The position numbers and the translations under genes were made by a program. Under the pieces are notes generated by a model. That model had not been told where the DNA came from. It made no database searches and worked only from the letters and a program-made list of their open reading frames with translations. A stretch of 64,000 nucleotides of DNA, taken from Bacillota bacterium (lineage in GTDB: Bacteria > Bacillota > Negativicutes > CTSoil-072). Below, in pieces: positions 11,906-33,703 of this stretch; position 1 is the stretch's first letter; each line of letters starts with the position of its first letter. The stretch lies in the NCBI GenBank assembly GCA_017889545.1, contig JAGFZV010000016.1:9124-73123 (forward strand), written 5' to 3'.

Positions 11906-11949
11906 TACAAGCTCCTTTACAAAAAATAGTTATATCACCAAATCCAACT

Positions 11950-16826: not shown

Positions 16827-16854
16827 AAAATTTTTGTTTTAGACAACGCAAAAG

Positions 16855-16908: not shown

Positions 16909-16949
16909 ATAAACGAATCCATAATTCCCTGTTTTATTTATGTTGCAAA

Positions 16950-19330: not shown

Positions 19331-19391
19331 GGACAGTCTGGTCAGTCACATTTCTCTCATCCCACCTTTGACGAATATTTGGCATCGGCTG

Positions 19392-20078: not shown

Positions 20079-20225
20079 TTATCAAGCTCCTTTCACCTGA
20101 TTGCTGCAGCCAATAAAATGCCATGCCCTTACACTTCATCGTGTTTTGGAAGATGGCTCACGGCCCGTTCCGTTGGTATTTTGGCCTGATAGCAAGAAAC
20201 TACTAAAAATATTATTAATGACTGT

Positions 20226-20334
20226 ATTATATCACGGTCTTTTTTTATTTTGCGAAAATTTTGGCATATTGAACTTGATTTTAAGAAATTTTTAAGAATA
20301 TTATCCAATAATTATATTATATCATTGTCTTTTC
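20226..20334. promoter_or_regulatory. two copies of the 19-bp direct repeat TATTATATCAnnGTCTTTT (20226-20244 and 20316-20334) in the divergent RR / napG-dms promoter region
   Basis: Read directly. OmpR-family regulators bind direct repeats, so these are candidate binding sites. Confidence 0.35.
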
Positions 20335-20359
20335 TATTCGAATCAGAAAATGTTAAATT

Positions 20360-20986
20360 ATGGCAAAACGGAGGCAAACCCAAACTATGCGTGATGGCTT
20401 TTTGATGACCAGGCGGGGATTTTTGCGAACAGCGGGTCTGACAATCATGATGACCTCCGCCGGAGGCGCCTTAAGTTTCCTTGAACTACATAAACAGTTT
20501 TTACGCCCTCCCGGCGCATTGCCCGAACAAGACTTTCTTGCCCGTTGCCTCAAGTGCCAGAAATGCCTTGCCGTATGTCCCACAAGCGTGATTATGCCGC
20601 TTTCTTTGTCTGAAAGTATCCGTGGGTTAGGCACTCCCGCACTGAATTATAAAAACGGTTTCTGCAACCTCTGTCTCAAGTGTATTGAAGTTTGTCCTAC
20701 CGGAGCCCTCAAGTCCCTACGGCCGGAACAAGTCAGCATCGGTGTGGCCCGGATCGATCCGGCCAATTGCGTTGCGTGGAATTGGATGGGCTGCACCGTA
20801 TGTGCCGCCCAATGTCCGCTTAACGCCATTTCCCTTGACGATGGCAAGCGCCCGGTAGTTGACGCCGAAAAGTGCAACGGCTGCGGCATATGTGAAATGT
20901 CCTGCCCCAGTACGTCCCTTCGCGCATACAACAAGCAGTCTCAGGGAAAAGGCGTCGTAGTGACGCCGCTAAAAAGCGGGGTATAG
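20360..20986 (+). CDS. Tat-exported NapG-like ferredoxin (4x 4Fe-4S)
   Basis: Twin-arginine motif TRRGFLRTAGL and four CxxCxxCxxxCP motifs. An alternative start lies at the ATG at 20387. Confidence 0.6.
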   Translation: MAKRRQTQTMRDGFLMTRRGFLRTAGLTIMMTSAGGALSFLELHKQFLRPPGALPEQDFLARCLKCQKCLAVCPTSVIMPLSLSESIRGLGTPALNYKNGFCNLCLKCIEVCPTGALKSLRPEQVSIGVARIDPANCVAWNWMGCTVCAAQCPLNAISLDDGKRPVVDAEKCNGCGICEMSCPSTSLRAYNKQSQGKGVVVTPLKSGV

Positions 20987-20989
20987 CCG

Positions 20990-21823
20990 ATGAAATTTAA
21001 ACCGAAAATCCAATGGCTGCGTCAATTAATCATTTTATCGCTATTGGGTGTGGTTGTTTATGGAGCTTCGTCGAAGGAAGCATGGGGAACTATTTGTGAT
21101 ATTTGCCCCATCGGACTGTTGGGCGTCTCCGTGGCAGGCAAGGTGCTGTTACCCCAGGCAATGGTGCTGATTGGCCTTGAAGTAGCAGCAGTTGTCGTCT
21201 TGGGGAAGTTTTTTTGCTCCTGGGTTTGTCCTACCGCCCTATTTCTCCGCAATAACAAACCGCAAGTAACCACAGAGCAACAGGCAAGCACGGCAAAAAC
21301 GTCTCTTTCCTCTAACGTCGGAATACTGGGGGCTGCCCTTCTTTCCACTTTACTTGTCGGCTTTCCAATTTTTTGCCTCATCTGTCCCATCGGTTTGGTT
21401 TTTGTATTTATCTTTGCCGTATATAAACTGTTTTCTATTTACCAACCCGGCTGGGAATTGATTGTCGTCCCGGTGGTACTGACGCTGGAATTGCTGTTCT
21501 TCAAATCTTGGTGCCGCTCTTATTGTGCGGTGGGAGCCTTTATGAGCATCATCAGCCGCTTGTTCAGATTTGGCCCGAGCCCCATGATCCAGGGCAAAAC
21601 TTGTTTGGCGGATCAAGGGTGCCGGGTATGCAAGACCAATTGTCCCGAACAGCTTGATCTGCACAAAGACAGTTCATCAGCAACTGCCGATTGCACTCTT
21701 TGTCTTGAATGTTATGAGAAATGCCCCACAAAGGCCGTTAGAATAGGCCTGGGCAAGTCGCCAAAAACACACTTATGTAACACTTCAATAAACGATAATT
21801 CAAGGAGGTCAAGCAATGAATAA
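20990..21823 (+). CDS. NapH-like membrane polyferredoxin (quinol dehydrogenase membrane subunit)
   Basis: TM-embedded CxxxCP motifs (CSWVCPTALF, CLICPIGLVF, CRSYCAVGAF) and two C-terminal 4Fe-4S motifs (CRVCKTNCP, CTLCLECYEKCP). Confidence 0.6.
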   Translation: MKFKPKIQWLRQLIILSLLGVVVYGASSKEAWGTICDICPIGLLGVSVAGKVLLPQAMVLIGLEVAAVVVLGKFFCSWVCPTALFLRNNKPQVTTEQQASTAKTSLSSNVGILGAALLSTLLVGFPIFCLICPIGLVFVFIFAVYKLFSIYQPGWELIVVPVVLTLELLFFKSWCRSYCAVGAFMSIISRLFRFGPSPMIQGKTCLADQGCRVCKTNCPEQLDLHKDSSSATADCTLCLECYEKCPTKAVRIGLGKSPKTHLCNTSINDNSRRSSNE

Positions 21824-24386
21824 TCTCAACCTGACAAGACGGCAGTTTCTGAAAGTCGCAGCCGTCGCCGGCTCAGCTGCATCTCTGTTTCCCCTAGGGA
21901 ATGAAGTCCTCAAGGGATTGGCGACCGCCGCGCCCGCGCAACCATCGGACATGAAAGTCATTCAGAGCGCTTGCCGCCAGTGCTACGGCCGCTGCACAAT
22001 CAATGGCTTTGTCAAAGATGGACGCGTGCTCAAAGTCGAAGGTAAACCAGGGACTTTTTCGGAGGGAACGGTGTGCAGCCGTGCTTTCAGCATCCCGCAG
22101 ATCATGCACAGTCCCCTGCGCATTAAATATCCCATGAAGCGCGTGGGGGCTCGCGGCGAAGGCAAGTGGCAGCGAATCACCTGGGAGGAAGCCTGGGACA
22201 TTATCATCCCCAAAATGAAAGAAGTTCAGGAGAAATACGGCGGGCATACAATCGTCTTCAATAATGGCACAGGCCGGGACCAATTGATTCTGATGACCAT
22301 GCAGAAATGCTTCTACGAAATGGGCAGCACCGGGGGCTTCGGTGTCGGCAATGTATGCAAGATCGCCAACGACGACGTGCAGCGGCGCATTGTCGGCAAT
22401 CCCTGCCAGTTCACCGGGTGGGATGGCCCCAAGACAAAAACCATCCTGATGATGGGACGGGCCCTCTACTCGTGGGGTTATTACGATTGGCTCACTATAA
22501 AACGGGCCCAAGAACGAGGCGCCAAACTGATCGTGGTAGACCCTCGTTACACGGTGGCGGCATCCAAAGCGGATCTGTGGCTTCCTGTCCGCCAGGGCAG
22601 CGATTTGGCGCTCATCCTGACCTTCATCAACATGCTGATCACAGAAAACAGATATGATAAGACTTTTGTCGCCCAGTGGACCAACGCTCCCTTCCTAGTC
22701 AAGGAAGACGGCTTTTTGCTCCGGCAAAGCGATCTGGTCCCCGGTGGAAGCACCGACCAATTCATTGTGTGGGATGAGACATCCAATAGTATACAGCACT
22801 GGGACGCCAAGGCGATGGCCTGGAGTTCCTCGGATGCACAGCCAGCCCTATTGGGTACCCATGCCGTTCCTAGCGGCAAACAGTACAGGACCGCCTTTCA
22901 GGCCTTGGCTGACAGCGTCAAAATGTGGACTCCGGAAAAGGCCGCCGAGGTCACCTGGGTCCCGGCGGAGAAAATTCGGGAAGCCGCCAGGCTTTACATC
23001 GATAACAGCCCGGGCGCCTGCTTCATGCGCGGCCAAAAAATTGAATTCAGCAACCACAGCAGCAGCAAGAGCCATGCCATCGCCATCATGATGGCCCTTG
23101 CGGGCAATCTGGACGCAGAGGGAGGAAACCTGGTCCGTCCTGACACGCCCCATTCGGTAAGCGCCGTGTTTCAAGCATTGCCTCCCCATGGCAAAATCCG
23201 CAAGGAAACTATTGCCAATATTAAAAAATACAGCCTGTGTCCGGGTCAGGCCAAAATTTCCGGTGAGATCGGCGGCTTTGCCGCCGCCACTACCCGCGCC
23301 CTTATCACCGAGAAACCTTTCCTGCCGAGGGTGTACTGGGGTCAGACCACCGAGCCCATGGCTGGCTCTCTTGACAGTCGGCAAGTCTGCGAAGCCCTCA
23401 AAAAATTCGAATTGACCGTGAATGTGGATCTGTTTATGACGCCCACCGGCGAACTGTCGGACATTATTCTGCCTGCCGCTCATCCAAACGAGGTCGACCG
23501 TATCGAATACCCTCAGTCCGGTCACAGTTGGCCGGCGGCCAATACCTGCTCCATCCGTCAACCCTTCGTTCCCCCGCCTGGTGAGTGTCGGGACGATGTG
23601 GATATCATATTTGACCTTGCCAAGCGCATGAATGTGGATATGGGCTGGAAGGACAAATATCACTGGTTTGAGTTTGCTTTGGCTCCCTCCAAAATAACGT
23701 TTGAAGAATTACGAAAAAAAGGTCATCTCACCAGGCCGGTGACTTACCGCCGCTACCAGACCGGAAAGCTCCGCCGTGATAATAAACCGGGCTTTCAGAC
23801 TTCTTCAGGCAAAGTTAACCTGTATTCGGAAGATCTAAAAAAAGACGGTTGGGGACCGCTGCCCGCCTATATCGAAGAGCCCTTCTCCCCTCTGAGCAAT
23901 CCGGAGATGCTTAAGGATTATCCGTATATCTTCTTTACCGGCGGCCGATCCCATGCCTACTTCCACAGCGAATACCGCATGTCTCCCTTCATGCGTGAGA
24001 TTCATCCCTTCCCTACTGTCGAAATCAATCCGAAAACAGCGGAAAAGCATGGCATCAATGATGGCGACTGGGTCTATATCGAGACCCAGCATGGAAGATG
24101 CAAGCAAAGAGCGTGCCTGACCACAGCCATCGCCCCCCACAGCATTCACTGCGACCACGACTGGTGGTTCCCGGAGAAACCCGTAACCGATGACTTGCAC
24201 GGCATTTTTGAGTGCAACCCGAACGCTATTGTCTCTAACGACCGTGTGCACGACCCGGCAGTGGGAACGTCTAATTACGGCGGTCTGTGCAAAATTTACA
24301 AAGCTGAGGACGGACCGCCTAATGGCATTTATATGACAGCCCAACAACTTGAAGCGTTTATGCCCAAAGCGCCGGGGAGGGAGTAA
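21816..24386 (+). CDS. dmsA: Tat-exported molybdopterin oxidoreductase catalytic subunit, DmsA family (anaerobic S-/N-oxide reductase)
   Basis: Tat signal (RRQFLKVAAVAGSAASL), N-terminal Cx2Cx3C...C FeS motif, and a block IKYPMKRVGARGEGKWQRITWEEAWDII that from memory is almost identical to E. coli DmsA. 856 aa with RBS AAGGAGG. Confidence 0.75.
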   Translation: MNNLNLTRRQFLKVAAVAGSAASLFPLGNEVLKGLATAAPAQPSDMKVIQSACRQCYGRCTINGFVKDGRVLKVEGKPGTFSEGTVCSRAFSIPQIMHSPLRIKYPMKRVGARGEGKWQRITWEEAWDIIIPKMKEVQEKYGGHTIVFNNGTGRDQLILMTMQKCFYEMGSTGGFGVGNVCKIANDDVQRRIVGNPCQFTGWDGPKTKTILMMGRALYSWGYYDWLTIKRAQERGAKLIVVDPRYTVAASKADLWLPVRQGSDLALILTFINMLITENRYDKTFVAQWTNAPFLVKEDGFLLRQSDLVPGGSTDQFIVWDETSNSIQHWDAKAMAWSSSDAQPALLGTHAVPSGKQYRTAFQALADSVKMWTPEKAAEVTWVPAEKIREAARLYIDNSPGACFMRGQKIEFSNHSSSKSHAIAIMMALAGNLDAEGGNLVRPDTPHSVSAVFQALPPHGKIRKETIANIKKYSLCPGQAKISGEIGGFAAATTRALITEKPFLPRVYWGQTTEPMAGSLDSRQVCEALKKFELTVNVDLFMTPTGELSDIILPAAHPNEVDRIEYPQSGHSWPAANTCSIRQPFVPPPGECRDDVDIIFDLAKRMNVDMGWKDKYHWFEFALAPSKITFEELRKKGHLTRPVTYRRYQTGKLRRDNKPGFQTSSGKVNLYSEDLKKDGWGPLPAYIEEPFSPLSNPEMLKDYPYIFFTGGRSHAYFHSEYRMSPFMREIHPFPTVEINPKTAEKHGINDGDWVYIETQHGRCKQRACLTTAIAPHSIHCDHDWWFPEKPVTDDLHGIFECNPNAIVSNDRVHDPAVGTSNYGGLCKIYKAEDGPPNGIYMTAQQLEAFMPKAPGRE

Positions 24387-24388
24387 TC

Positions 24389-24955
24389 ATGACCAGAAAA
24401 ATTATGATCGTGGATCTAGACAGATGTATCGGCTGTCATTCCTGTGCAGTTGCCTGCAAACAGGAAAATGGCATCAGCTTGGGAGTGTTTTACAACAAAG
24501 TGCGGACGGTTGGTCCCTTCGGCAATTACCCCGACCTTGAGCTATATTATCTGCCTGTTATATGCCAGCACTGCAATAAACCAGAATGCGTCAATGTATG
24601 CCCCACGGCCGCTTCGTACAAACGGCAAGACGGCATTGTGCTCGTCGACCATAATAAATGCATTGGCTGCCAGTATTGCATCATGGCCTGCCCGTACGGT
24701 GTCCGTACTTATGACAAGGCCAAGGGCGTCATCGAGAAGTGCACTCTGTGCGCCCATCGCGTGGAGGTAAACGAAGTTCCCGCCTGTGTGTCCATCTGCC
24801 CGGGCAAGGCGCGAATCTTCGGCGACCTTGACGATCCCAATTCAGAAGTTTCCAAAGCTGTGCGGGAGGCCGGTTCTTTCCTGCATCGCTTCGCCGATGT
24901 GGGCAATGAACCCGGTGTCGGCTATATTCTAAAAAGCCGGAAATGGAGGAGTTAA
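24389..24955 (+). CDS. dmsB: four-cluster 4Fe-4S electron-transfer subunit (DmsB-like)
   Basis: 188 aa with four Cys clusters (CIGCHSCAVACK, CQHCNKPECVNVCP, CIGCQYCIMACP, CTLCAHR...CVSICP). Confidence 0.75.
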   Translation: MTRKIMIVDLDRCIGCHSCAVACKQENGISLGVFYNKVRTVGPFGNYPDLELYYLPVICQHCNKPECVNVCPTAASYKRQDGIVLVDHNKCIGCQYCIMACPYGVRTYDKAKGVIEKCTLCAHRVEVNEVPACVSICPGKARIFGDLDDPNSEVSKAVREAGSFLHRFADVGNEPGVGYILKSRKWRS

Positions 24956-24956
24956 T

Positions 24957-25874
24957 ATGGAAATACAATGGACGCTTCTCATTTTTAGTCTATTTGTCAG
25001 TCTGGGTATGGGGTCTTTCGCGATTGTGGCCATCACAGAGTTGCGGGGAATCATGCCTGGCATCCGCCTGCCTGGAGCGATTACCAGTCTAGCAGCCCTC
25101 GGCATTGGCAGTGCTGCCAGTTATTTTCATTTGGGTCATCCAGAAAAGATCTTTCATATTCTCGGCAACATCCGCTCCGGCATAGCCCAGGAACTTATCG
25201 TCACCTCCATCGCCAGCGCGGTGATTTTCGTCTATACCGTTTTGCTATGGAAAGATTCCGCGCCTGATGTCCGCAGAAAGCTGGCATTGGTCGGCCTGAT
25301 CCTCTCACCAGTCGTTCCCTTTGCCACAGGTCGGATATATGTGCTAGCCGCACGACCAGCCTGGGATACCTGGCTGCTACCGCTGATGTATGTGGCATCG
25401 GCCGCCGTCCTGGGAGCATTCACCATGTACCTTTGGATAATGCTGCGTGAACCTGACCAGAAGACGCTGGCTACTGTGAACAAAGCGGCGCTGTTGGGGC
25501 AGGTGGCTTTTACCGTAACAATTGCAGCATATTTAATATATGTGGCTATGGCACCCCACCCCCACTCCAGCCGTTCGGTGGCCCGCCTGCTAACCGGCGA
25601 CCTAGCTTTGCTGTTCTGGGGCGCCGTGGTACTTATCGGCCAACTTGGGCCACTGTTTTTGACCTGGCGAAACATGCAGGGGCCACCGACATCTTTACAG
25701 GCCGGTGTTCCAGTCAGCCCCGCATCAGGAGGAATCAGCGGGGCAGTTGCTGCTACAGCTGAAAACCGACTTATTCTGGCGATTATGGGCTTGCTCTGTG
25801 CGTTGGTCGGTTCGACGGCCATCCGGATGATTGTCTATCTTATCGGCAGCAGCGTACAGTCATACATCTATTAA
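24957..25874 (+). CDS. dmsC: membrane anchor subunit (DmsC family)
   Basis: 305 aa and about 8 TM segments. The FHLGHPEKIF motif matches the E. coli DmsC LHLGSPMRAF region. RBS GGAGGAG. Confidence 0.65.
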   Translation: MEIQWTLLIFSLFVSLGMGSFAIVAITELRGIMPGIRLPGAITSLAALGIGSAASYFHLGHPEKIFHILGNIRSGIAQELIVTSIASAVIFVYTVLLWKDSAPDVRRKLALVGLILSPVVPFATGRIYVLAARPAWDTWLLPLMYVASAAVLGAFTMYLWIMLREPDQKTLATVNKAALLGQVAFTVTIAAYLIYVAMAPHPHSSRSVARLLTGDLALLFWGAVVLIGQLGPLFLTWRNMQGPPTSLQAGVPVSPASGGISGAVAATAENRLILAIMGLLCALVGSTAIRMIVYLIGSSVQSYIY

Positions 25875-25960
25875 AGCTGAGCCCAATCCTTTACCTCGCC
25901 ACTGCAGTTTGTCACAGGCAGACGCAGGCAGGCAGTCTACATGCAGAAAGGTGTTTTAAA

Positions 25961-26635
25961 ATGAACGAACTTAATACCCTCGAACTTGAACAGCTATTTT
26001 CCTTCCGGGGTGCCATATACCAGTTGCTTTCCCGGTTCTATCGCCGGGAAATGGATCAAGAACTTCTGAACCAACTACACCAACTGGAATTTGAAGCGGA
26101 TATCACTTTACCGGAAATTCTGGAAGGTAATCGATTGTTGAAGATCTTCTTGGCACAGATGGGAGAAAATGCGCTGACCGATCTTGCGGTAGACTACGCA
26201 AAGATTTTCCTCGGAGCAGGTCCAACATGCGGGGAAGGAGCATATCCCTATGAATCCGTATATACCAGCCCCGACCGCCTGCTGATGCAAAACGCCAGAG
26301 ACCAGGCTGTCGCCATCTACAGAAGCGAGGATATCCGACTTGAAGACAGCTTCAACGAACCGGAGGATCATATTGCCATTGAATTGACATTCATGGCTTA
26401 TCTATGCCAGAAGACTTCGGAGGCAATCCGTCGCAACGATGAAGCTGCCGCCAATAGCTGCCTGCTGAAACAGCGACAATTTCTTCAAGATCATCTGCTA
26501 TCTTGGGTACCCAATTTTTGCGCCGATGTTCAGCGCATTGCTGCAACCGACTTTTATAAAGCGATTGCTATGATTACGTATGGTTTTCTTATCATGGATC
26601 GGGATATGACTTTAGGCAAGCATAGCACAACTTGA
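25961..26635 (+). CDS. TorD/DmsD-family redox enzyme maturation chaperone
   Basis: 224 aa with an EPEDHIAIELTFMAYL motif typical of the TorD family, located directly after dmsC. Confidence 0.65.
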   Translation: MNELNTLELEQLFSFRGAIYQLLSRFYRREMDQELLNQLHQLEFEADITLPEILEGNRLLKIFLAQMGENALTDLAVDYAKIFLGAGPTCGEGAYPYESVYTSPDRLLMQNARDQAVAIYRSEDIRLEDSFNEPEDHIAIELTFMAYLCQKTSEAIRRNDEAAANSCLLKQRQFLQDHLLSWVPNFCADVQRIAATDFYKAIAMITYGFLIMDRDMTLGKHSTT

Positions 26636-26698
26636 GCCCAAGGCCTTATAACGACTACATTGGCAGGTTTTAAAACAAAAAAATCGTTGATATAAAGC

Positions 26699-26737
26699 AA
26701 AATAGCTTGCCACTAATCTGGCAAGCTATTTTGCACC
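26699..26737 (+). terminator. Rho-independent terminator of the dms operon
   Basis: aaatagcttgcca-ctaatc-tggcaagctattt followed by a T-run. Confidence 0.6.
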
Positions 26738-26739
26738 GT

Positions 26740-27035
26740 AAGACGTGTATATAGGGACGTTCCTTGGGGTCGGGATATAGCGGGATTGTTTTTTGTCACT
26801 TTTTTGCCATAATTCCACGAGATATTCCCGTCACCCGTTCGATTTCAAGGATAGAAACTCTTGTCGCCTTCGAAACTCACAGCGTTTTGTCCCGCTCCAC
26901 TTAGATCAAAGTCATTCTCGACTAAAGTTTGATGAACATTGGTCCAGTTGCCCAAATAGGCTTTAAAAAGGCTTTTACTAATCCTTTTCGAATTTCCGAC
27001 GCAATCATCTCCTTAGCTCCTCCTAGTTGGACCTG
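26740..27035 (-). pseudogene. decayed ORF remnant (strong SD + ATG, then frameshifts/stops) at the left edge of the AT-rich island
   Basis: On the minus strand, AGGAGGAGCTAAGGAG-ATG opens a reading frame MIASEIRKGLVKAFLKPIWATGPMFIKL*. Coding-like sequence continues in shifted frames (…LVENDFDLSGAGQNAVSFEGDKSFYP*, …ILEIERVTGISRGIMAKK*). Confidence 0.25.
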
Positions 27036-28160
27036 CTAAAAATCCATAATTTCCGGTTTATAGTCGTCAGGCAATTCTTCTTCCTGTAAAAATTTGAAAT
27101 TGTCATCATTCAGTATAGGGATAAAGATTTCGTATGGAATCATAGAGAACTCACAAGCATAATTACTTGCGCCGAACAACATTCCTGCTTTGCTGCTCAG
27201 ATTTAAACCTCTTGCAAACTTTGTGTAGTTTGAACAATCATGAACAGCTAAATCCCAGTTTTCCTCGTCAGCTATTTTCATGAACTGCAAAGTTAACTCC
27301 CTGCTCCAAATTGGAGAAATATAGCCATGTCGGGAGATATACATATTTTCCCCATAATAATTACCTATGTTATTCTCGTTCAAATGGAGTTCCGCACAGT
27401 TGATGAAATCGAGCTTTGTTTCGAATATTGCCTGCTTTTTCTTGAAAAATGCTTCGAAAAACTCAGGAGTCATCGGAGTTTCGATACCGACACTGTGAAT
27501 ATATTTTTTCGCTAAGCCAATATTTTCAATTACTTTGTCTGAACACGCAGAGGCGCCTAGGTTGAAACGGATCTCATCAAGACCGGCTTCTCCTAATGCT
27601 TTCAATGTCTCTTCTGTAGCCAAAGTGCCATTCGTGTATAAATGTTGATGAATTTGAGCATCACTAAATTTCTTTATAACCGAATAATATTTTTCAATTT
27701 CCATGAAAGGTTCTAAATAAACATAGGAAATCCCCGTAGGTTTTGGGTAAACGGAAAGAAGCAGTTCAATATCCTTCTCGTAAAATTTCGTGCCGCCAAT
27801 TTCCCACAACCCTTCTCCAACTGGATGAATATCTTCCAGCTCGCCATAATTATAACAGAACTTACACTCTAAATTACATTTGTTCGTTTTCCTGATTGCA
27901 CTCAACCCAGTGCCTAACAGACAAGATCGACATCCTTGGGGGAATTTGCTTTCATTGCCTACAAAAAAAGTTCTATTTTCCAAAGTTTTTAAATTTCTAA
28001 TTTCCGACATCAACAGTTCATTTCTATGATCAATTGCTGCCTCAATTTGCGCAAAGGTAGAGTAAATGATTTCTTCATGTTTTACACTAATTTCTTCTTC
28101 CTCCGACAATTGTGCAAAAAAATCAAACCATATCAACGCATCATTCTTTGAAATTTTCAT
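27036..28160 (-). CDS. radical SAM enzyme (QueE/NrdG/PflA-like CxxxCxxC activase-type core, with a distinctive N-terminal extension)
   Basis: 374 aa with the canonical cluster motif KCNLECKFCYN. Upstream is CRSC plus a ~90-aa N-terminal region. No SPASM domain. Very AT-rich codon usage. Confidence 0.55.
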   Translation of the reverse strand: MKISKNDALIWFDFFAQLSEEEEISVKHEEIIYSTFAQIEAAIDHRNELLMSEIRNLKTLENRTFFVGNESKFPQGCRSCLLGTGLSAIRKTNKCNLECKFCYNYGELEDIHPVGEGLWEIGGTKFYEKDIELLLSVYPKPTGISYVYLEPFMEIEKYYSVIKKFSDAQIHQHLYTNGTLATEETLKALGEAGLDEIRFNLGASACSDKVIENIGLAKKYIHSVGIETPMTPEFFEAFFKKKQAIFETKLDFINCAELHLNENNIGNYYGENMYISRHGYISPIWSRELTLQFMKIADEENWDLAVHDCSNYTKFARGLNLSSKAGMLFGASNYACEFSMIPYEIFIPILNDDNFKFLQEEELPDDYKPEIMDF

Positions 28161-28200
28161 AACGCATCCGCCTATCTATTTCATTTTAAACTTCACATTC

Positions 28201-28353
28201 TTACCAATTGTGAACGTTCTCTTGATTCCGTCTCCACGCTTCTTGACACAGCTCGAACCGAATCAAACTTGTACCCTCAATGATATATTCGTATCGTTCA
28301 TCCACTGCAACTGAACCTGAATTGAAGCAACATGCTTTACTTCCTTTCATCAT
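28201..28353 (-). CDS. hypothetical 50-aa small ORF between ATP-grasp and radical SAM genes (possible precursor/substrate peptide)
   Basis: The ATG directly abuts the ATP-grasp TAG stop (translational coupling). Product: MMKGSKACCFNSGSVAVDERYEYIIEGTSLIRFELCQEAWRRNQENVHNW. It is below the 60-aa track cutoff and was found by manual translation. Confidence 0.2.
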   Translation of the reverse strand: MMKGSKACCFNSGSVAVDERYEYIIEGTSLIRFELCQEAWRRNQENVHNW

Positions 28354-29571
28354 CTACTTTACTGTCAATTTAAAACTAGCGAAGGCATCGAATAATTTCT
28401 CTTTAAGACGCTCATAATCCGTATCTTCAATAATAATATATCCTGTTCGTACGGATGAACTACTCTGCGTCATCAAGCGATCGCCAGGCTTATTTAAAAA
28501 CGTGATCTCTTTGATGCCGTCCAAATGAGAAAAATCTTTTTCAGTAGAGATATCGACTAATTGACCCGCCTTAGACGGAAATGCAAGATACCCGGTAAAA
28601 ACGGGTCGATCATTCACGGCCTCCGCGTCATAGTGATTTATCGCTACGTCAATAAAAGCTTTATTAATATTAAGTCCCCGAGTGTTTTTTATACAAGCTC
28701 CAATACATGGCGATCCCCCGATTCTGGCTGCAATCTCGCCAAGATAAATTTTTCCCTCCCGCGTGACAAAAACCTCCATATGACAAACGGCATTTTTTAT
28801 GTCATAACAGCAAATAAGGTGCTCATTGAAATGCTTAATCTCCCGAATTATCTCATCGCTGTCGCAATACGCCGGAAATGCGATTGACCCTTTAGGCTTG
28901 CCATTCCTCACTGTATCCAAATTATTAAACAAGTTCTTTCCGACTGAAGCAAACATCACCTTTCCATTCAAAACAACTGAATCACAATGATATTCTTCTC
29001 CGTCGATAAAATTTTCGACAATAAACTCCCTATGCCGAACCAACATCTTGATTACTCTAAAGAAAAAAAAATCCTTAAAGGTATTTACTCTGTAAGTGCA
29101 TCTAGTGCCAAATCCACTCACCGGCTTTATAATGATCGGATATCTGTTTTCTTTTATGAATGCACACACATCAACCAGACTCTTTGCCAGTTTGCATTTT
29201 GCCGTAGCAATACCGTGCTTGAGAGCTGTCTGTTTCATAATATATTTATTGCGAACCTGAAGCGTTTCGGTATAATTCATACCGGGTATATTAAATTTCC
29301 CCCGTAAATATCCGGCTAACTCCACCACCGCTTCATACGTTCCATAAACGGCCCGCACCTGCTTAGTTTCAAGGATGCCGGCAAAGGCCTTTTCCACTTC
29401 ATCTCTACGCTGTATGTCAGACACAATCAGAATTCTGTCGTAATGACGATGCAGCACAGTAATATCGATCTTTCGCTTCCGATCCACAATAACTACTTTA
29501 TAATAGTCGTTGTACCCGGCAAGAAATTGATGAATATATGGAAAATCCAACAAAAAAACCAAAGCGTTCAT
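28354..29571 (-). CDS. ATP-grasp domain ligase (carboxylate-amine/L-amino-acid-ligase-like)
   Basis: 405 aa with ATP-grasp signatures (PIIIKPVSGFGTRCTYRV; EYHCDSVVLNGK; HMEVFVTREGKIYLGEIAARIGG). Confidence 0.6.
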   Translation of the reverse strand: MNALVFLLDFPYIHQFLAGYNDYYKVVIVDRKRKIDITVLHRHYDRILIVSDIQRRDEVEKAFAGILETKQVRAVYGTYEAVVELAGYLRGKFNIPGMNYTETLQVRNKYIMKQTALKHGIATAKCKLAKSLVDVCAFIKENRYPIIIKPVSGFGTRCTYRVNTFKDFFFFRVIKMLVRHREFIVENFIDGEEYHCDSVVLNGKVMFASVGKNLFNNLDTVRNGKPKGSIAFPAYCDSDEIIREIKHFNEHLICCYDIKNAVCHMEVFVTREGKIYLGEIAARIGGSPCIGACIKNTRGLNINKAFIDVAINHYDAEAVNDRPVFTGYLAFPSKAGQLVDISTEKDFSHLDGIKEITFLNKPGDRLMTQSSSSVRTGYIIIEDTDYERLKEKLFDAFASFKLTVK

Positions 29572-29593
29572 GCATCGCTACCACCTCTACAAG

Positions 29594-29746
29594 TTATGCA
29601 CCTGTCGAAAAACCCGATTTGACATCTAAGTGAAAACGACTATATGCTTCATACAACTTGTTTAGCAATCGATTACGATCGGCATCTTCGATAATAATAT
29701 AGCCTGTTCGAATGGTCGTATTTTTACGACGGCCCAAAAACTTCAT
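29594..29746 (-). pseudogene. truncated C-terminal fragment of a second ATP-grasp ligase paralog
   Basis: A manually translated 50-codon ORF MKFLGRRKNTTIRTGYIIIEDADRNRLLNKLYEAYSRFHLDVKSGFSTGA aligns with the C-terminus of the adjacent ATP-grasp protein (…VRTGYIIIEDTDYERLKEKLFDAFASFKLTVK). DNA-level similarity is also visible (tcttcgataataatatagcctgttcg vs tcttcaataataatatatcctgttcg). Confidence 0.5.
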
Positions 29747-29825
29747 TCGGTTGAAAATATGGTCTTAAGAATACATAAAAACAAGACCGCAACCCTCTTT
29801 TTATAAGGTTTACGGTTTCTCGCCG

Positions 29826-30305
29826 TTACCAATGATACGGTTCACCCCGGTTGATCTTAAACGCCCGATAGATCTGCTCGACCAAAAAAAAGCGAACCAT
29901 TTGATGGGTAAAAGTCATCTTGGAGAAAGATAGCCGTTCCTTTGCTGCGGCAATCAGCGCCGGCGAAAGGCCAAACGCTCCGCCAATGACAAACGTGACA
30001 TCACTTTGTCCGTCAACGCCCAAACCGGCCAGTTTTCCGGCGAATTCTTCCGATGATACTTGGCGTCCGGCAACGTCCAGCACAATCAAATGACTGGCGC
30101 TCCTAACCTGTTTCAGCAGTCGTTCGCCTTCCCGTTCCAGCGCCTTGGCCTTATCGGCAGCCGAAGGAGCATTCGGCATCCGTTCTTCGTCAATTTCGAT
30201 TATTTCCAGACGGCAATATGGCCCCAGACGTTTGCGGAACTCATCAATGCCGGCAGTAAGATATTTTTCTTTGATTTTTCCCACAGCAATAATTGTAATA
30301 TGCAT
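29826..30305 (-). CDS. rlmH: 23S rRNA (pseudouridine1915-N3)-methyltransferase RlmH
   Basis: The start is reset to MHITIIAVGKIKEKYL (track ORF 30407). This is a SPOUT-fold RlmH of 159 aa. Confidence 0.75.
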   Translation of the reverse strand: MHITIIAVGKIKEKYLTAGIDEFRKRLGPYCRLEIIEIDEERMPNAPSAADKAKALEREGERLLKQVRSASHLIVLDVAGRQVSSEEFAGKLAGLGVDGQSDVTFVIGGAFGLSPALIAAAKERLSFSKMTFTHQMVRFFLVEQIYRAFKINRGEPYHW

Positions 30306-30306
30306 C

Positions 30307-31419
30307 TTACTGCTGCACCGGCATTTCTTCCAGAAGCACAGAAACTGTCCGATTTCTGCCGTTCCGCACAAATTCCACTTCCACTCGGCTGCCAATCGCC
30401 TGCGCATCCAATACCGCCCGTAATTCAGCCACGCTATTGGTCTCAGTCCCGGCTACTTTCAGGATAATGTCTCCGGTTCGCAGACCGGATTTTCCGGCCG
30501 GACCTGCATCATCCACCCGGGCCACATAAATGCCCTTGTCAATATCCCACTCATATCCATAGCTTGCAGCTAAATTCTTATCCAGTACTCCGACGCCCAA
30601 AAAAGCCCTGGCAACATGTCCTTTTTCAATAATCGCCTGCAAAATCGGCCGTGCGGTATTGATCGGAATGGAAAAACCAATCCCTTCTACTCCTGCAACC
30701 GCAATTTTAGCGCTGTTGATTCCGATTACCATGCCGTCGGCATTGGCCAGCGCGCCGCCGGAATTACCGGGGTTAATCGCCGCATCAGTCTGAAGCAGTT
30801 TGAATTTTCGTTCGCCGATTTCCAGCGACCGGTTCAACGCGCTGATCACGCCGGTCGTAACGCTGCCGCGAAACTCCAATCCCAGCGGATTACCGATCGC
30901 TATGGCCGGTTCACCAACCAGCAACGCATCCGAATCACCGAATACCGCGGCAGGCAACCCAGCAGCTTCCACTTTGACAACCGCCAAATCAGTCGCAGAA
31001 TCGACCCCCAGCACTTTTCCCGGCAAAGTTCGCCCGTCAGCCAAAGAAACCGTCAATTCCTGCGCTCCGTCCACTACATGAAAATTCGTGGCGATATATC
31101 CGTTGGAATCAAAGATCACACCCGAACCAACTCCTTGTTCCACAAGAACTCGCCGACTAAACAGATCACGAGTGTATGCTTTGTTGGCAATTCCCACCAC
31201 ACTGGGGCCTACGGCCTGTGCGGCCCGAACGATTGCCGTATTGCGAACGCCGGAAATTTCAGCCTGCGCAAGAGGCGGCTGCAGCAAATTGGGAAGAGAC
31301 GCAGCGCTTTGCGGGACAGGCTTGGCAATAAACCGATCCCCATATCCCAATACCAGTCCTCCGCCGACCAATGCGCCAAAAACAGCAATTAAAAAATAAG
31401 ATGCAACTTTTTTATACAC
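30307..31419 (-). CDS. htrA: HtrA/DegP-family trypsin-like serine protease with PDZ domain
   Basis: N-terminal TM segment, catalytic triad context (ATNFHVV; D; GNSGGAL) and a C-terminal PDZ domain. GTG start with RBS GGAGGAAG. Confidence 0.75.
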   Translation of the reverse strand: MYKKVASYFLIAVFGALVGGGLVLGYGDRFIAKPVPQSAASLPNLLQPPLAQAEISGVRNTAIVRAAQAVGPSVVGIANKAYTRDLFSRRVLVEQGVGSGVIFDSNGYIATNFHVVDGAQELTVSLADGRTLPGKVLGVDSATDLAVVKVEAAGLPAAVFGDSDALLVGEPAIAIGNPLGLEFRGSVTTGVISALNRSLEIGERKFKLLQTDAAINPGNSGGALANADGMVIGINSAKIAVAGVEGIGFSIPINTARPILQAIIEKGHVARAFLGVGVLDKNLAASYGYEWDIDKGIYVARVDDAGPAGKSGLRTGDIILKVAGTETNSVAELRAVLDAQAIGSRVEVEFVRNGRNRTVSVLLEEMPVQQ

Positions 31420-31477
31420 CTGACTTCCTCCTTGCGCTCCCGGTTATCTGAAAAATCCAATAAAGCCTACTTTACTT

Positions 31478-32254
31478 TCATTCTTTCCAGCTCACAATGG
31501 CATCAGGCAAAGTAACATGCAAGGTAATATCCGCACCGATTTCAAGGCCCTGATCCCTCAGAATTTGGGCAACAGTGTTTTCCGCAAGTTCCCGCCGGTT
31601 GTTCTCTTTGCTGATATGTGCCAAAAAAACCTGGCAATGTTCCCCCAATTCCAAATTTGCCAACGTCCGTCCGGCTTCCACATTCGAAAGGTGGCCCCGA
31701 TTGCTCAAGATTCGGCGCTTCAAATGCCAAGGATAGGTTCCGTTCCGCAGCATGTCGAGGTCATGATTGGTTTCCAAAACCATCCCGTCACTGCCCGTCA
31801 GCGCCTTTTTCACACCATCCGTAACAAAACCCAAATCAGTAGCCAAGCTATATTTTCGGTCTTTCTCATAAAAAGTGTACCCGACAGGATCGGCGGCATC
31901 ATGAGAAGTATTGAAAGACTCCACCTTTACCGCTCCAAAATCCATTGACTGATAGAAATTCCGGCAGCACTCCGGCGCGAATTGCCGGCACGATGACATT
32001 TTCCGCCAGGTTTCCGGGCGGGCATAAATCGGCAGTCGATATTTTTTGACCAAGGTCGGCAATCCGCTGATATGATCGCTATGTTCATGGGTGATCAAGA
32101 TTCCATCCAAATCTTCCACGGCTGTGCCCACCTCTGCCAGCGCATTCTTGATGCGGCGAGCGCTGATGCCGGCATCCACCAAAATATTGGTATCATCAAA
32201 CTTAAATAAAGTAGCGTTTCCGCTACTGCCGCTGGCCAATACATGTATTTGCAT
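31478..32254 (-). CDS. yycJ: MBL-fold metallo-hydrolase (YycJ/WalJ-like)
   Basis: HxHxDH motif (THEHSDHISG). The yycJ-htrA-rlmH order matches the Bacillus wal locus tail. Confidence 0.65.
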   Translation of the reverse strand: MQIHVLASGSSGNATLFKFDDTNILVDAGISARRIKNALAEVGTAVEDLDGILITHEHSDHISGLPTLVKKYRLPIYARPETWRKMSSCRQFAPECCRNFYQSMDFGAVKVESFNTSHDAADPVGYTFYEKDRKYSLATDLGFVTDGVKKALTGSDGMVLETNHDLDMLRNGTYPWHLKRRILSNRGHLSNVEAGRTLANLELGEHCQVFLAHISKENNRRELAENTVAQILRDQGLEIGADITLHVTLPDAIVSWKE

Positions 32255-32359
32255 AATTGCTCCTTACAATGGGAACCACTATCTTCCCCACAGTTCATCT
32301 TTGTATAGAAGTTTCGCTTTATTTGCTCGATCTCCTGCTTGTTGCTGCAGTCTACAGCA

Positions 32360-33703
32360 TCACAGTTGCAGCAGTTTTTCGTTAACCGCATTTTGCACTG
32401 CCGACGGCAAGGAGGCAAGCAAAACAGCAGTAATTTCCCTCAGCCGTTCTTGCGTCTTTGCTTCAAACCGCAGCGTAAACAACGGTTCCGTAACGGAAGA
32501 GCGGATCATTCCCCACCCATCGGCAAATTCAACGCGAACACCGTCAATTCGGTTCACGCTATACTGTGCAAGAGCCTGGGCCGCTGCATCCAATATTTCC
32601 TCTTTATCCGGCCCGAGGTAAGGAACGCGAATATCCGGCGTAATCAAGTAACGGGGGATATTCGCAATCAGCGAGGAAAGCGAACCATGACGGTCAATGA
32701 ATTCGCATATCTTTAAGCCGGCAAACATTCCATCGTCATACCCCAATTCCCGAAAGAAGAAATGACCGCTGATTTCACCGGCAAAAAGAGCCTTTTCCCG
32801 TAAAAACGCCGCCTTGCTGAAGGTATGTCCCGCCCTTGCCATCACAGGAGTCCCACCGGCTTTAATAATTTCTTCCGGGACGACCATCGAACATTTTGCA
32901 TCATAAATAATGGTTCCCTTAGTCTGCTCCAAATAAGAGCGGGCGAGAAGAACCAGGATATCGTCATTATTGACCGGTTGGCCGTTTTCATCCACTACCC
33001 CTACCCGGTCACCGTCACCGTCAAAGCCGATCCCCAAATCAGCACCGCAGGCTCGCACCTGTTCGCCAAGCACCAGCAAGTTTTCCGCTAAAGCCGGATT
33101 GGGCGGCCGATGTGGGAACCGGCCATCCGACTGGCAGTGAAGCTCTACAACATCGTATCCTAATCGCCTGTATAAATCCGGCGCAATGTTTGATGTTGCT
33201 CCATTTCCAGCATCCAAAACTACGCGCAAACGGCCCTTTGCCGCCTGAGCCGCAGTAGCCGCTAAATATTGTTCAATCACCGGCAGCGTCTGGACACTGC
33301 CAGCACCGACAGTACCGGCATCGGCTTCGACCAAAGCAGCGATCTCGGCAATTTCCGCTTCACTGACCGGTTCTTGCCCGAAGACAAATTTGAAGCCGTT
33401 GTATTCCGCCGGATTATGCGAAGCGGTCACCATCACGCCGCCGTCCGACTGAGTCGCTTTGATTGCATAATAAAAAACCGGCGTAGCGACTGTGCCGATA
33501 TCAATCACTTTGCAGCCTGATTCAGCCAAACCGGCTACTATACTCTGCTGCAAACGCGGAGTTGACAAGCGGATATCGCCGCCGACAACGACTTGACGGC
33601 CGGCCAGCTTGACGCCAAGCGCGCGGGCGATCTTGCGGACCATCGTAGTTGGCAATTCAGTTTCTGCTTTGCCGCGTATGTCACAGGCATGAAAAATTGT
33701 CAT
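32360..33703 (-). CDS. alpha-D-phosphohexomutase family enzyme (phosphomannomutase/phosphoglucomutase; possible phosphopentomutase role)
   Basis: Active-site phosphoserine loop TASHNPAEYNGFK and metal-binding DGDGDR motif. It sits immediately downstream of deoC. Confidence 0.65.
   Translation of the reverse strand: MTIFHACDIRGKAETELPTTMVRKIARALGVKLAGRQVVVGGDIRLSTPRLQQSIVAGLAESGCKVIDIGTVATPVFYYAIKATQSDGGVMVTASHNPAEYNGFKFVFGQEPVSEAEIAEIAALVEADAGTVGAGSVQTLPVIEQYLAATAAQAAKGRLRVVLDAGNGATSNIAPDLYRRLGYDVVELHCQSDGRFPHRPPNPALAENLLVLGEQVRACGADLGIGFDGDGDRVGVVDENGQPVNNDDILVLLARSYLEQTKGTIIYDAKCSMVVPEEIIKAGGTPVMARAGHTFSKAAFLREKALFAGEISGHFFFRELGYDDGMFAGLKICEFIDRHGSLSSLIANIPRYLITPDIRVPYLGPDKEEILDAAAQALAQYSVNRIDGVRVEFADGWGMIRSSVTEPLFTLRFEAKTQERLREITAVLLASLPSAVQNAVNEKLLQL

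What the first reader, a model, noticed from the sequence alone, without database searches (positions are those of the whole stretch)
26740..29810. Low-GC 3-kb accessory island: radical SAM enzyme + ATP-grasp ligase + small ORF, bounded by decayed gene remnants
Base composition drops sharply (long A/T runs, AT-rich codons) exactly between the dms-operon terminator (26737) and rlmH (29826). The island encodes a radical SAM protein whose CNLECKFC cluster motif resembles small activase/QueE-type enzymes but carries a ~90-aa N-terminal extension with an extra CRSC pair. It also encodes an ATP-grasp ligase, transcribed co-directionally with a 50-codon ORF between them. Radical SAM plus ATP-grasp pairs are typical of peptide or small-molecule (for example modified amino acid or nucleoside) maturation clusters. 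Both island edges carry broken genes, indicating horizontal acquisition followed by erosion.
Basis: partly seen in the sequence, partly recalled or inferred. Interest (0 to 1): 0.7.

Follow-up and report, generated by a model that had tools for sequence, protein, structure and literature searches.

The report
Mosaic gene scrap beside rlmH
The low-GC stretch is real, but it is a patchwork in a strain-variable hot spot next to rlmH: a leftover ligase gene from a cell-surface sugar-decoration cluster sits beside a stand-alone radical SAM gene of unknown function that has spread unusually widely among anaerobic Firmicutes, and the two do not form a peptide-maturation cluster.

Summary
GC falls to 0.36-0.41 between the dms terminator and rlmH. 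The ORFs, the CNLECKFC motif, the extra CRSC pair and broken genes at both edges are all present.

The interpretation as a radical SAM + ATP-grasp + small-peptide maturation cluster is not supported.
- The radical SAM gene (MJ0021/COG2108 type, uncharacterised) is a single-gene unit. It occurs in more than 550 species with no conserved neighbour.
- In six related Negativicutes genomes it also lies just downstream of rlmH.
- The ATP-grasp is a rare L-amino-acid-ligase-type enzyme. Its relatives sit in tandem with CapK-like and glycosyltransferase genes.
- Here the ATP-grasp is flanked by the last 42 codons of a paralogue. Beyond the radical SAM gene lie the first 19 codons of a TupA-type ATP-grasp gene.
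- The 50-codon ORF is junction DNA and is absent from the one sibling locus.
- A 99.4%-identical strain diverges 10 nt after the rlmH stop.

The surprise is the radical SAM gene itself. Proteins are 82-96% identical across two bacterial classes, and synonymous divergence is far below saturation while adjacent core genes are saturated. This points to recent wide spread, yet no mobile-element hallmark was found. Its function remains unknown.

The parts
29816..30305 (-). rlmH (159 codons, 30305..29826) plus 10 nt. This is the edge of the conserved core; a conspecific strain diverges at 29816/29815.
   Evidence: L089 matches window 33417..29816 at 99.4% and then carries unrelated DNA. SPOUT_MTase Pfam label and 159-aa gene call in L089.
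29724..29815 (.). 92-nt spacer unique to this genome, between the rlmH edge and the module shared with L081.
   Evidence: Not matched by L089 or L081.
29594..29746 (-). Remnant of a second, tandem LAL-type ATP-grasp gene: the last ~42 codons. Homology to L081 starts at 29723.
   Evidence: tblastn gives 76% identity to the equivalent remnant in L081, which carries an in-frame stop, and 50-60% to the C-termini of intact tandem paralogues in L084-L088.
28354..29571 (-). Intact L-amino-acid-ligase-type ATP-grasp gene (405 aa).
   Evidence: Pfam ATP-grasp_4 at 1.5e-13 and LAL_C2 at 31.9 bits against a cutoff of 29.4. Best PDB match is 4wd3, an L-amino acid ligase, at 6e-30. It keeps all 24 invariant columns of 20 homologues. 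Only 35 homologue clusters were found. dN/dS against L081 is 0.29.
28201..28353 (-). The 50-codon ORF. It is junction DNA and is not supported as a gene.
   Evidence: No family hit. Window 28345..28182 has no counterpart in L081, which has 345 nt of unrelated DNA with no + strand ORF of 25 aa or more. The last 14 nt of the ORF lie in the conserved radical SAM leader.
28161..28214 (-). Conserved 5' leader of the radical SAM gene, with inverted repeat TTCACA-N11-TGTGAA at 28214..28192.
   Evidence: Nucleotide homology to Sporomusa and related loci runs from the stop codon up to exactly 28214. Alignment of upstream regions. No Rfam match.
27036..28160 (-). Stand-alone radical SAM gene (374 aa) of the uncharacterised MJ0021/COG2108 type.
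26952..27008 (-). Stub of a TupA-type ATP-grasp gene: the first 19 codons. The ORF then runs into unrelated DNA and stops at 26922.
   Evidence: 19/19 residues identical to the start of the intact 299-aa PF14305 gene in L081. DNA homology ends at 26952.
26740..26951 (.). About 210 nt of unassigned DNA between the TupA stub and the terminator.
   Evidence: No match in any fetched locus except the same-strain contig L091.
26697..26734 (.). Perfect 16-bp hairpin. It is a terminator between the convergent dms operon and the island genes, with a T-rich tail on the minus strand.
   Evidence: (I4).

Best explanation
The low-GC stretch is a patchwork, not a pathway. It lies in a hot spot for gene gain and loss that begins 10 nt after the rlmH stop codon. 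Two unrelated things sit side by side.

(1) A stand-alone radical SAM gene of the uncharacterised MJ0021/COG2108 type.
- It has its own conserved leader.
- In related Negativicutes it is the usual right-hand neighbour of rlmH.
- It has spread as a single gene through anaerobic Firmicutes.
- Inferred chemistry: the C95/C99/C102 cluster cleaves SAM to a 5'-deoxyadenosyl radical. Three further invariant cysteines (C77, C80, C309) hold a second metal site, probably a three-Cys Fe-S cluster with an open iron.
- The substrate is unknown and is encoded elsewhere. A peptide or protein is the most likely substrate, because the nearest paralogues sit in RiPP-like clusters.

(2) A fragment of a cell-surface glycopolymer decoration cluster.
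- It comprises one intact L-amino-acid-ligase-type ATP-grasp gene, the last 42 codons of its tandem paralogue, and, beyond the radical SAM gene, the first 19 codons of a TupA-type ATP-grasp gene.
- Inferred chemistry: ATP-dependent formation of an acyl phosphate, then amide-bond formation with an amino acid or amine.
- The ligase is still intact but has lost its partners (glycosyltransferases, acetyltransferase, TupA) and evolves under relaxed constraint.

The 50-codon ORF is a by-product of the junction between the two pieces.

What is shown: the anatomy, distribution, strain variability and divergence statistics. What is inferred: both enzyme chemistries, the glycopolymer role and the lack of functional coupling.
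For: Strain variability:
- L089 is 99.4% identical up to window 29816 and unrelated thereafter.
- L091 is the same strain, 100% identical over window 15961-27075.

Sibling locus L081:
- It matches window 29723..28345 at 90% and 28181..26952 at 93%. There the module lies between a glycosyltransferase cluster plus GNAT and an intact TupA gene.
- None of those partner genes is in the window.
- Genes further downstream are colinear: NIR_SIR, Crp and GDH.

The ligase:
- More distant ligase relatives occur as tandem pairs with CapK_C-like and GT4 genes.
- dS to L081 is 0.22 for the ligase and 0.26 for the radical SAM gene, inside the background range of 0.15-0.55.
- dN/dS is 0.29 for the ligase against 0.084 for the radical SAM gene.

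Autonomy of the radical SAM gene:
- 80 loci from other species show no ATP-grasp or TupA and no conserved neighbour.
- There is no synteny even among four Sporomusa species.
- Between loci, homology ends at the stop codon and a median of 19 nt upstream.
- rlmH followed by the radical SAM gene is seen in L004, L005, L008, L024, L025 and L032, with different cargo in between.

Family features: invariant C77, C80, C95, C99, C102 and C309.

Paralogues at 33-54% identity to the fusion protein P0167 (36-44% to the window protein) sit with PqqD, an S8 peptidase, an ABC exporter, a SPASM radical SAM enzyme, and GT1 and GT25 genes.
Against: - The ligase-radical SAM adjacency is kept in both the window and L081, with similar dS. 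In L081 the radical SAM stop is only 13 nt from the TupA start. A lineage-specific functional link to ATP-grasp enzymes therefore cannot be excluded.
- The ligase is intact, so it may still be useful.
- What lies more than 8 kb upstream of the module in L081 is unknown, so the order of events (insertion versus deletion) is not resolved.
- There are no expression or biochemical data.
- The glycopolymer role rests on neighbours of homologues, not on an assay.
Confidence: 0.62

Rival explanations
1. One reading: the ATP-grasp ligase, the 50-codon ORF and the radical SAM enzyme form a small maturation cluster for a ribosomal peptide or small molecule. The ORF would be the precursor.
For: - The genes are co-directional, and no terminator-like site lies between the ligase gene and the start of the radical SAM gene.
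- The ORF start abuts the ligase stop.
- Distant radical SAM paralogues sit in RiPP-like clusters.
- The adjacency is retained in L081.
Against: - The ORF region is the only part of the module not shared with L081. L081 has no + strand ORF of 25 aa or more in its 374-nt gap.
- The ORF matches no family, and no Shine-Dalgarno-like sequence is visible upstream of its start (read).
- The radical SAM gene occurs without any ATP-grasp in 80 other species.
- The ligase relatives occur without any radical SAM gene.
- No RRE or SPASM domain was detected.
Confidence: 0.06
2. In this lineage the radical SAM enzyme has been recruited into the glycopolymer-decoration pathway. It would work with the flanking ATP-grasp enzymes (ligase and TupA), for example by modifying the amino acid or sugar that they attach.
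For: - In L081 the gene lies between the ligase and TupA, 13 nt from the TupA start.
- The ligase and the radical SAM gene show matching dS to L081, so they have been linked since the two genomes split.
Against: - The same gene, 85-92% identical in protein, stands alone next to rlmH in related genomes and in unrelated contexts in Sporomusa.
- It keeps part of its own leader in the window.
- In the window TupA is destroyed and the glycosyltransferases are absent, yet the radical SAM gene stays under strong purifying selection, with dN/dS 0.084.
Confidence: 0.12
3. The whole 3-kb segment is a degraded integrative island of the SCC type, inserted site-specifically at the 3' end of rlmH. This site is the staphylococcal orfX att site (from my own knowledge, not tested here).
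For: - The breakpoint against a conspecific strain lies 10 nt after the rlmH stop.
- In L024 a 4.2-kb insertion is bounded by a 99-nt direct repeat (95% identical) of the rlmH 3' end.
- Different cargo follows rlmH in L005, L008, L024 and L089.
Against: - No direct repeat of the rlmH end occurs at the far side of the island, and no significant flanking repeats were found.
- Pfam scans of the ten ORFs of at least 110 aa in window 105-15241 and the precomputed Pfam labels of the same-strain contig L091 for window 15961-27075 show no recombinase, integrase or transposase. Three ORFs of this size at 3686-6643 were not scanned.
- The L024 insert carries no recombinase either.
- The same module sits in a different left-hand context in L081.
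Confidence: 0.1

Closest known systems
L-amino acid ligases of the ATP-grasp superfamily (RizA, PDB 4wd3; BL00235, PDB 3vot; DdaF dapdiamide synthase)
   Same: ATP-grasp_4 plus LAL_C2 domain architecture and about 405 aa. phmmer gives 6e-30 to 4wd3 and 1e-13 to 3vot. The nucleotide- and Mg-binding positions are conserved across homologues: K149, E266, E279 and R283.
   Different: It is not an orthologue of any named ligase. The best NCBIfam model, DdaF, scores 65.8 bits against a cutoff of 840. Its homologues sit with CapK_C-like and glycosyltransferase genes rather than antibiotic clusters. The substrate is unknown.
TupA-type ATP-grasp amidoligases of teichuronopeptide and capsule clusters (Pfam PF14305)
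   Same: The intact neighbour in L081 carries PF14305 and lies at the end of a glycosyltransferase cluster. The window keeps its first 19 codons.
   Different: In the window the gene is destroyed and only a stub remains.
Small radical SAM enzymes with a partial TIM barrel: viperin, PFL activase, QueE
   Different: Sequence identity is only 11-16%. There is no family-level HMM match. The protein has an extra ~90-residue N-terminal helical part, three additional invariant cysteines (C77, C80, C309) and a C-terminal extension. No glycyl-radical enzyme, queuosine or nucleotide-kinase neighbours were found.
Uncharacterised protein MJ0021 / COG2108 ('related to pyruvate formate-lyase activating enzyme')
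   Same: UniRef and JGI give this name to near-identical proteins.
   Different: This is only a label. No paper in the searched library describes a function.
SCCmec-type islands at orfX/rlmH in staphylococci (from my own knowledge)
   Same: Variable DNA begins at the 3' end of rlmH. L024 shows a duplicated rlmH 3' end around an insert.
   Different: No ccr-type recombinase and no att repeats occur around the window segment.

Membership tests
Radical SAM superfamily | CX3CX2C motif for the SAM-binding [4Fe-4S] cluster | tested here: met
   C95-NLE-C99-KF-C102 is invariant in 20 family members.
Radical SAM superfamily | Pfam PF04055 above the gathering score, and a partial TIM-barrel fold | tested here: met
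QueE (7-carboxy-7-deazaguanine synthase) | Match to a QueE family model, or closest fold match to QueE | tested here: not met
QueE (7-carboxy-7-deazaguanine synthase) | Genomic association with queC/queD/queF | tested here: not met
   No conserved neighbour of any kind was found in 60 analysed loci.
Glycyl-radical enzyme activases (PFL-AE type) | Family-level model match and an adjacent glycyl-radical enzyme | tested here: not met
   The best activase model, HPDL_rSAM_activ, scores 17 bits against a cutoff of 420. No recurrent large neighbour was found.
Prokaryotic viperins (pVip) | Significant full-length match to pVip models | tested here: not met
   PADLOC pVip gives 2.7e-06 and 25 bits over residues 92-197 only, which is the cluster-binding core. 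NCBIfam viperin scores 19.8 bits against a cutoff of 180.
RiPP cluster (radical SAM maturase + ATP-grasp + precursor) | A precursor ORF conserved next to the enzymes | tested here: not met
   The 50-codon ORF is absent from sibling locus L081 and matches no family.
RiPP cluster (radical SAM maturase + ATP-grasp + precursor) | Co-occurrence of the two enzymes across genomes | tested here: not met
   The pair is found only in the window and L081-L083, one lineage. It is absent from 80 other radical SAM loci and from five ligase-homologue loci.
RiPP cluster (radical SAM maturase + ATP-grasp + precursor) | A peptide-recognition (RRE/PqqD) or SPASM domain in the maturase | tested here: not met
   No such Pfam or NCBIfam domain was found. 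Such domains or partners occur only with distant paralogues.
L-amino acid ligase (ATP-grasp) | ATP-grasp domain plus the LAL C-terminal domain 2 | tested here: met
   PF13535 at 51.1 bits against 27, and PF18603 at 31.9 bits against 29.4.
L-amino acid ligase (ATP-grasp) | Sequence relationship to solved L-amino acid ligases | tested here: met
   4wd3 at 6.1e-30 over residues 39-375, and 3vot at 1e-13.
L-amino acid ligase (ATP-grasp) | ATP-dependent ligation of two free L-amino acids | not testable with these tools
   This needs an enzyme assay. The neighbours of homologues suggest a glycan-linked carboxylate may be the acceptor instead.
SCC-type island at rlmH | Insertion at the 3' end of rlmH, bounded by direct repeats of that end | tested here: inconclusive
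   The breakpoint is 10 nt after the stop, but there is no repeat at the far side in the window. A 99-nt repeat of this kind exists in L024.
SCC-type island at rlmH | A cognate large serine recombinase (ccr) or other integrase | tested here: not met
   None was found among the ten ORFs of at least 110 aa scanned with Pfam in window 105-15241, nor among the precomputed Pfam labels of L091 for window 15961-27075. Three ORFs of this size at 3686-6643 were not scanned. The part of the window beyond 34 kb was not scanned.

The most novel reading that the evidence does not exclude
The radical SAM gene is a trait that has spread recently and widely, as a single gene, across at least two classes of anaerobic Firmicutes. 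It does so without plasmid, phage, transposon or repeat hallmarks. It lands repeatedly just downstream of RNA-methyltransferase genes (rlmH, RumA family) and marks hot spots of flanking gene turnover. Its product would be a two-cluster radical SAM enzyme that modifies a conserved cellular target, either a protein or peptide, or ribosomal or transfer RNA. That would make it both a new enzyme function and a new route of gene spread, for example homology-facilitated illegitimate recombination anchored on conserved genes.
Probability: 0.2. Interest if true: 0.7.

Novelty: new member of a known kind. Interest (0 to 1): 0.38.

Why it matters
As a biosynthetic lead the finding is weak: there is no peptide-maturation cluster here. 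Two things still matter.

First, it is a clean example of a hot spot for gene turnover anchored at the 3' end of rlmH outside staphylococci. The low-GC piece is partly the older resident (the radical SAM gene next to rlmH), and neighbouring higher-GC DNA (the dms operon) stands where a relative has other genes.

Second, it draws attention to an uncharacterised radical SAM family with thousands of near-identical members in Clostridia and Negativicutes. Their synonymous divergence shows recent spread, yet the vehicle of that spread and the enzyme's substrate are both unknown. Several hosts can be cultured (Sporomusa ovata, Clostridium tetani and its relatives), so the function is directly testable.

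Tried and rejected
- QueE, PFL-activase and viperin membership. Rejected on HMM scores and context.
- Known RNA elements upstream of the radical SAM gene. Rfam found nothing in the window at E<=1, nor in 8 loci at gathering threshold.
- Plasmid or phage carriage of the radical SAM gene. None found.
- Composite transposon around the gene in L064. No repeats; the flanking indels carry ABC ATPase, WYL regulator and alcohol dehydrogenase genes.
- Flanking att-like repeats in the window. Only chance-level short repeats.
- Conserved ABC-F neighbour. Only about 5 of 80 loci, not consistently placed.
- A conserved upstream small ORF ('...KKHSKKI*') in clostridial loci. It turned out to be a translation of the conserved 62-nt leader. 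A true RumA 3' end precedes the gene only in L012 and L014, and full RumA genes in L012, L031 and L051.
- Literature. COG2108, MJ0021 and the Sporomusa ovata accession gave nothing relevant. A search on radical SAM/YcaO fusions gave only general RiPP papers.
- The afdb50 fold library was unavailable.
- Exact-sequence look-up of the window radical SAM protein. Not on record.


Full report
**1. The observation**

All genes of the segment lie on the minus strand:
- a 50-codon ORF at 29746..29594;
- an ATP-grasp gene at 29571..28354 (405 aa);
- a second 50-codon ORF at 28353..28201;
- a radical SAM gene at 28160..27036 (374 aa).

GC in 400-nt windows is 0.35-0.43 across the segment. It is 0.48-0.57 in the dms operon and 0.50-0.54 in rlmH/htrA. 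GC3 is 0.37 and 0.41 for the two enzyme genes, against 0.49-0.64 for eight neighbouring genes. The dip is therefore real and sharp. Other parts of the left half of the window are equally low, for example 6-8 kb and 15-16 kb.

The CNLECKFC motif (C95/C99/C102) and the upstream CRSC pair (C77/C80) are present. Together with C309 they are invariant in an alignment of 20 family members down to 27% identity.

**2. The ATP-grasp gene and the broken genes**

Pfam finds ATP-grasp_4 and the L-amino-acid-ligase C-terminal domain 2, both above their cutoffs. The best solved relative is the L-amino acid ligase 4wd3, at 6e-30. No NCBIfam equivalog is approached: DdaF scores 65.8 bits against a cutoff of 840.

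The family is rare, with 35 clusters among 5.8 billion proteins. Homologues at 60-65% identity occur as tandem pairs followed by a CapK_C-like protein and a GT4 glycosyltransferase (L084-L088).

The closest relative is 87% identical in protein and 90% in DNA. It lies in L081-L083 at the end of a cluster of five glycosyltransferases, an epimerase, an EamA transporter and a GNAT. It is followed by the radical SAM gene and an intact TupA-type ATP-grasp gene (PF14305).

The window shares with L081 two blocks, 29723..28345 (90%) and 28181..26952 (93%).
- The left block begins with the last ~42 codons of a second ligase gene. L081 has the same remnant with the same left end, already carrying a stop codon. 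This truncation is therefore older than the split of the two genomes.
- The right block ends 19 codons into the TupA gene. The window has a stub, whereas L081 has the whole gene.

None of the glycosyltransferase, GNAT, EamA, PNPOx or Rrf2 genes of L081 is in the window. The window ligase keeps every invariant column of its family. Its dN/dS against L081 is 0.29, against 0.084 for the radical SAM gene, at the same dS of 0.22 and 0.26. Background genes shared by the two genomes have dS of 0.15 and 0.55.

I read this as an orphaned, still intact ligase under relaxed constraint. It was left over from a cluster that decorates a surface glycopolymer with amino acids. The role is inferred from neighbours only.

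**3. The 50-codon ORF between the enzymes**

The only part of the module not shared with L081 is window 28345..28182, which is most of this ORF. L081 has 345 nt of unrelated DNA there, with no + strand ORF of 25 aa or more. The last 14 nt of the ORF belong to the conserved leader of the radical SAM gene. It has no family match. It is not supported as a gene.

**4. The radical SAM gene is an autonomous unit**

It has 3196 homologue clusters, 86-96% identical among the 120 listed. In the species-representative genome collection, 556 pattern-matched stretches were confirmed as relatives. The 80 loci kept, one per species, are 82-92% identical. They include Sporomusa, Pelosinus, Megamonas, Clostridium tetani and C. 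botulinum, Tissierella, Caldicoprobacter and a Christensenellaceae genome. Sources name it only 'radical SAM protein', 'MJ0021' or 'PFL-activase-like uncharacterised protein'.

In 60 analysed loci no neighbour family recurs. No locus outside the window/L081 lineage has a ligase or TupA neighbour. Four Sporomusa species carry the gene in four unrelated contexts. Over 2415 locus pairs, nucleotide homology ends at the stop codon (median -1 nt) and a median of 19 nt upstream of the start.

The gene sits directly downstream of MBL-htrA-rlmH in L004, L005, L008, L024, L025 and L032, as it does in the window.
- In L004 and L025 the gap is only 110-140 nt.
- In L005 the gap holds a repeat protein.
- In L008 it holds an AraC-like gene and a Y1 transposase.
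- In L024 it holds a 4.2-kb insert bounded by a 99-nt direct repeat of the rlmH 3' end, and then a Big_3 protein.

In this clade, rlmH and the radical SAM gene therefore act as bookends of a variable slot. In the window the slot holds the ligase remnant and the ligase.

**5. Strain-level evidence**

L089 and L090 are 99.3-99.4% identical to the window over MBL-htrA-rlmH. L089 diverges at window 29816, 10 nt after the rlmH stop. It continues with a Y1 transposase flanked by inverted repeats and an NhaA-like gene that occurs nowhere in the window. L091 is the same strain as the window (100% over 11.1 kb) and ends inside the radical SAM 3' end.

Genes downstream of the module are colinear with L081 (NIR_SIR, Crp, GDH). 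The dms operon and its regulators stand where L081 has TupA-PNPOx-Rrf2. A lactate-utilisation cluster stands where L081 has one GNAT gene. The low-GC module is thus not simply a foreign body between native genes. The whole region left of rlmH is a mosaic.

No recombinase or transposase was seen among the ten ORFs of at least 110 aa scanned with Pfam in window 105-15241, nor among the precomputed Pfam labels of L091 for window 15961-27075. Three ORFs of that size at 3686-6643 were not scanned. No meaningful repeats flank the segment.

**6. Why the radical SAM protein is so conserved**

dN/dS is ordinary, at 0.07-0.09. What is unusual is low synonymous divergence.
- pS is 0.34-0.41 against Sporomusa, L004, L005 and L008.
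- pS is 0.47-0.53 against Clostridium, Tissierella and Anaerosolibacter.
- Randomising synonymous codons with each gene's own usage gives 0.85-0.91.
- The adjacent MBL, htrA and rlmH genes of the same genome pairs give 0.71-0.92, which is saturated.

In L004 the neighbouring genes have GC3 of 0.84-0.93 and the radical SAM gene 0.41. In L024, L025 and L041 its GC3 has risen to 0.65-0.67, so AT-richness is not intrinsic to the gene.

A neighbour-joining tree groups most Negativicutes sequences together, with the window nested among Sporomusa. It places a Pelosinus group inside Clostridium.

The simplest reading is relatively recent spread by transfer, including replacement at the same site. Yet the gene is absent from the viral and plasmid collections and shows no element boundaries. 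This remains unexplained.

**7. What the radical SAM enzyme may do**

Some of those relatives are fused to YcaO, TPR or nucleotidyltransferase domains. The fusion proteins lie in RiPP-like clusters with GT1 and GT25 glycosyltransferases, PqqD, an S8 peptidase, an ABC exporter, a SPASM radical SAM enzyme and small ORFs. This makes a peptide or protein substrate the best guess for the family.

The recurrent position after rlmH, and in L012, L031 and L051 after a RumA-family methyltransferase gene, is a weak lead towards RNA. The three extra invariant cysteines suggest a second, three-Cys metal cluster. All of this is inference.

**8. Verdict**

The accessory and eroded nature of the segment is largely confirmed. 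The proposed functional cluster is not supported.

The segment itself is ordinary: a mosaic remnant in a hot spot. The radical SAM family embedded in it deserves attention in its own right.

Noticed in passing
L024:2662-2760 and L024:6862-6960: A 99-nt direct repeat (95% identical) of the 3' end of rlmH, ending at the stop codon, brackets a 4.2-kb insert. The insert encodes a MetA-pathway/FadL-like channel and a phosphoesterase, with no recombinase. The radical SAM gene follows 1 kb further on.
   Followed up: partly
L089:3600-4480: In a conspecific strain (99.4% identical), a Y1 transposase/RAYT gene follows rlmH directly. It is flanked by inverted GGGGACAGGGAT / ATCCCTGTCCCC, and an NhaA-like gene follows that is absent from the window.
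   Followed up: partly
window 28192-28214; L001, L002, L005, L006, L009 about 7890-8000: Sporomusa-type loci share a promoter-like TTGAAA-N17-TATAAT and a leader of about 85 nt with inverted repeat TTCACA-N11/12-TGTGAA before the radical SAM start. The window keeps only the last 54 nt. No Rfam family matches.
   Followed up: partly
L010, L011, L012, L014, L015, L026, L030, L037, L050, L062: 62 nt before the radical SAM start: Clostridial-type loci share a 62-nt leader (AAAAAGCATAACAAGAAGATTTGAATTGAGTCTTCAGGAGGA...). A hairpin GAAGA-N11-TCTTC abuts an SD-like AGGAGG, and about 10 loci share the same left end at -62.
   Followed up: partly
L012:6558-7916, L031:6501-7889, L051:39-815: A full RumA/TrmA-family RNA (uracil-5) methyltransferase gene lies 70-115 nt upstream of the radical SAM gene on the same strand, in three loci from different branches of the tree. 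Together with the rlmH cases, this suggests a preference for sites after RNA-methyltransferase genes.
   Followed up: partly
L061 and L064: The two loci are 97-99% identical over more than 8 kb although labelled Clostridium amylolyticum and an Aminipila MAG. This indicates mis-binning or very recent transfer. They differ by ~2-kb indels placed at -389 and +20 of the radical SAM gene, so its immediate flanks are indel hot spots there too.
   Followed up: partly
L092:7001-9850, L094:7001-9373, L095:7001-8680: Distant paralogues are long fusion proteins (radical SAM-YcaO; radical SAM with a PaaA-like N domain). They sit in clusters with GT1 and GT25 glycosyltransferases, PqqD, an S8 peptidase, an ABC exporter, a SPASM radical SAM enzyme and small ORFs. 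This may be an undescribed glycosylated RiPP class.
   Followed up: partly
window 6889-15241: A lactate-utilisation cluster (GntR/FCD regulator, LarA lactate racemase, CCG/Fer4 protein, two FAD-linked oxidases, lactate permease) lies between Crp and the NIR_SIR gene. The relative L081 has only one GNAT gene there.
   Followed up: no
window 17000-26635: The DMSO-reductase-family operon (DmsA/B/C-like plus chaperone), two Fer4 proteins and a two-component system stand where L081 has TupA-PNPOx-Rrf2. This higher-GC block, not the low-GC module, may be the more recent arrival. Its gain would account for the truncated TupA gene.
   Followed up: partly
window 27075 (end of contig L091): A same-strain metagenome contig breaks inside the 3' end of the radical SAM gene. 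This is as expected if many community members share near-identical copies and tangle the assembly.
   Followed up: no
L045, L056, L071, L040 in the tree: The Pelosinus group of radical SAM sequences nests inside the Clostridium clade, next to 'Candidatus Clostridium eludens', away from the other Negativicutes. This is a likely inter-class transfer.
   Followed up: no
window 29826-30407: The longest rlmH ORF (193 codons) overlaps htrA by about 100 nt. The 159-codon form starting at 30305 matches the gene call in L089 and the relatives.
   Followed up: yes
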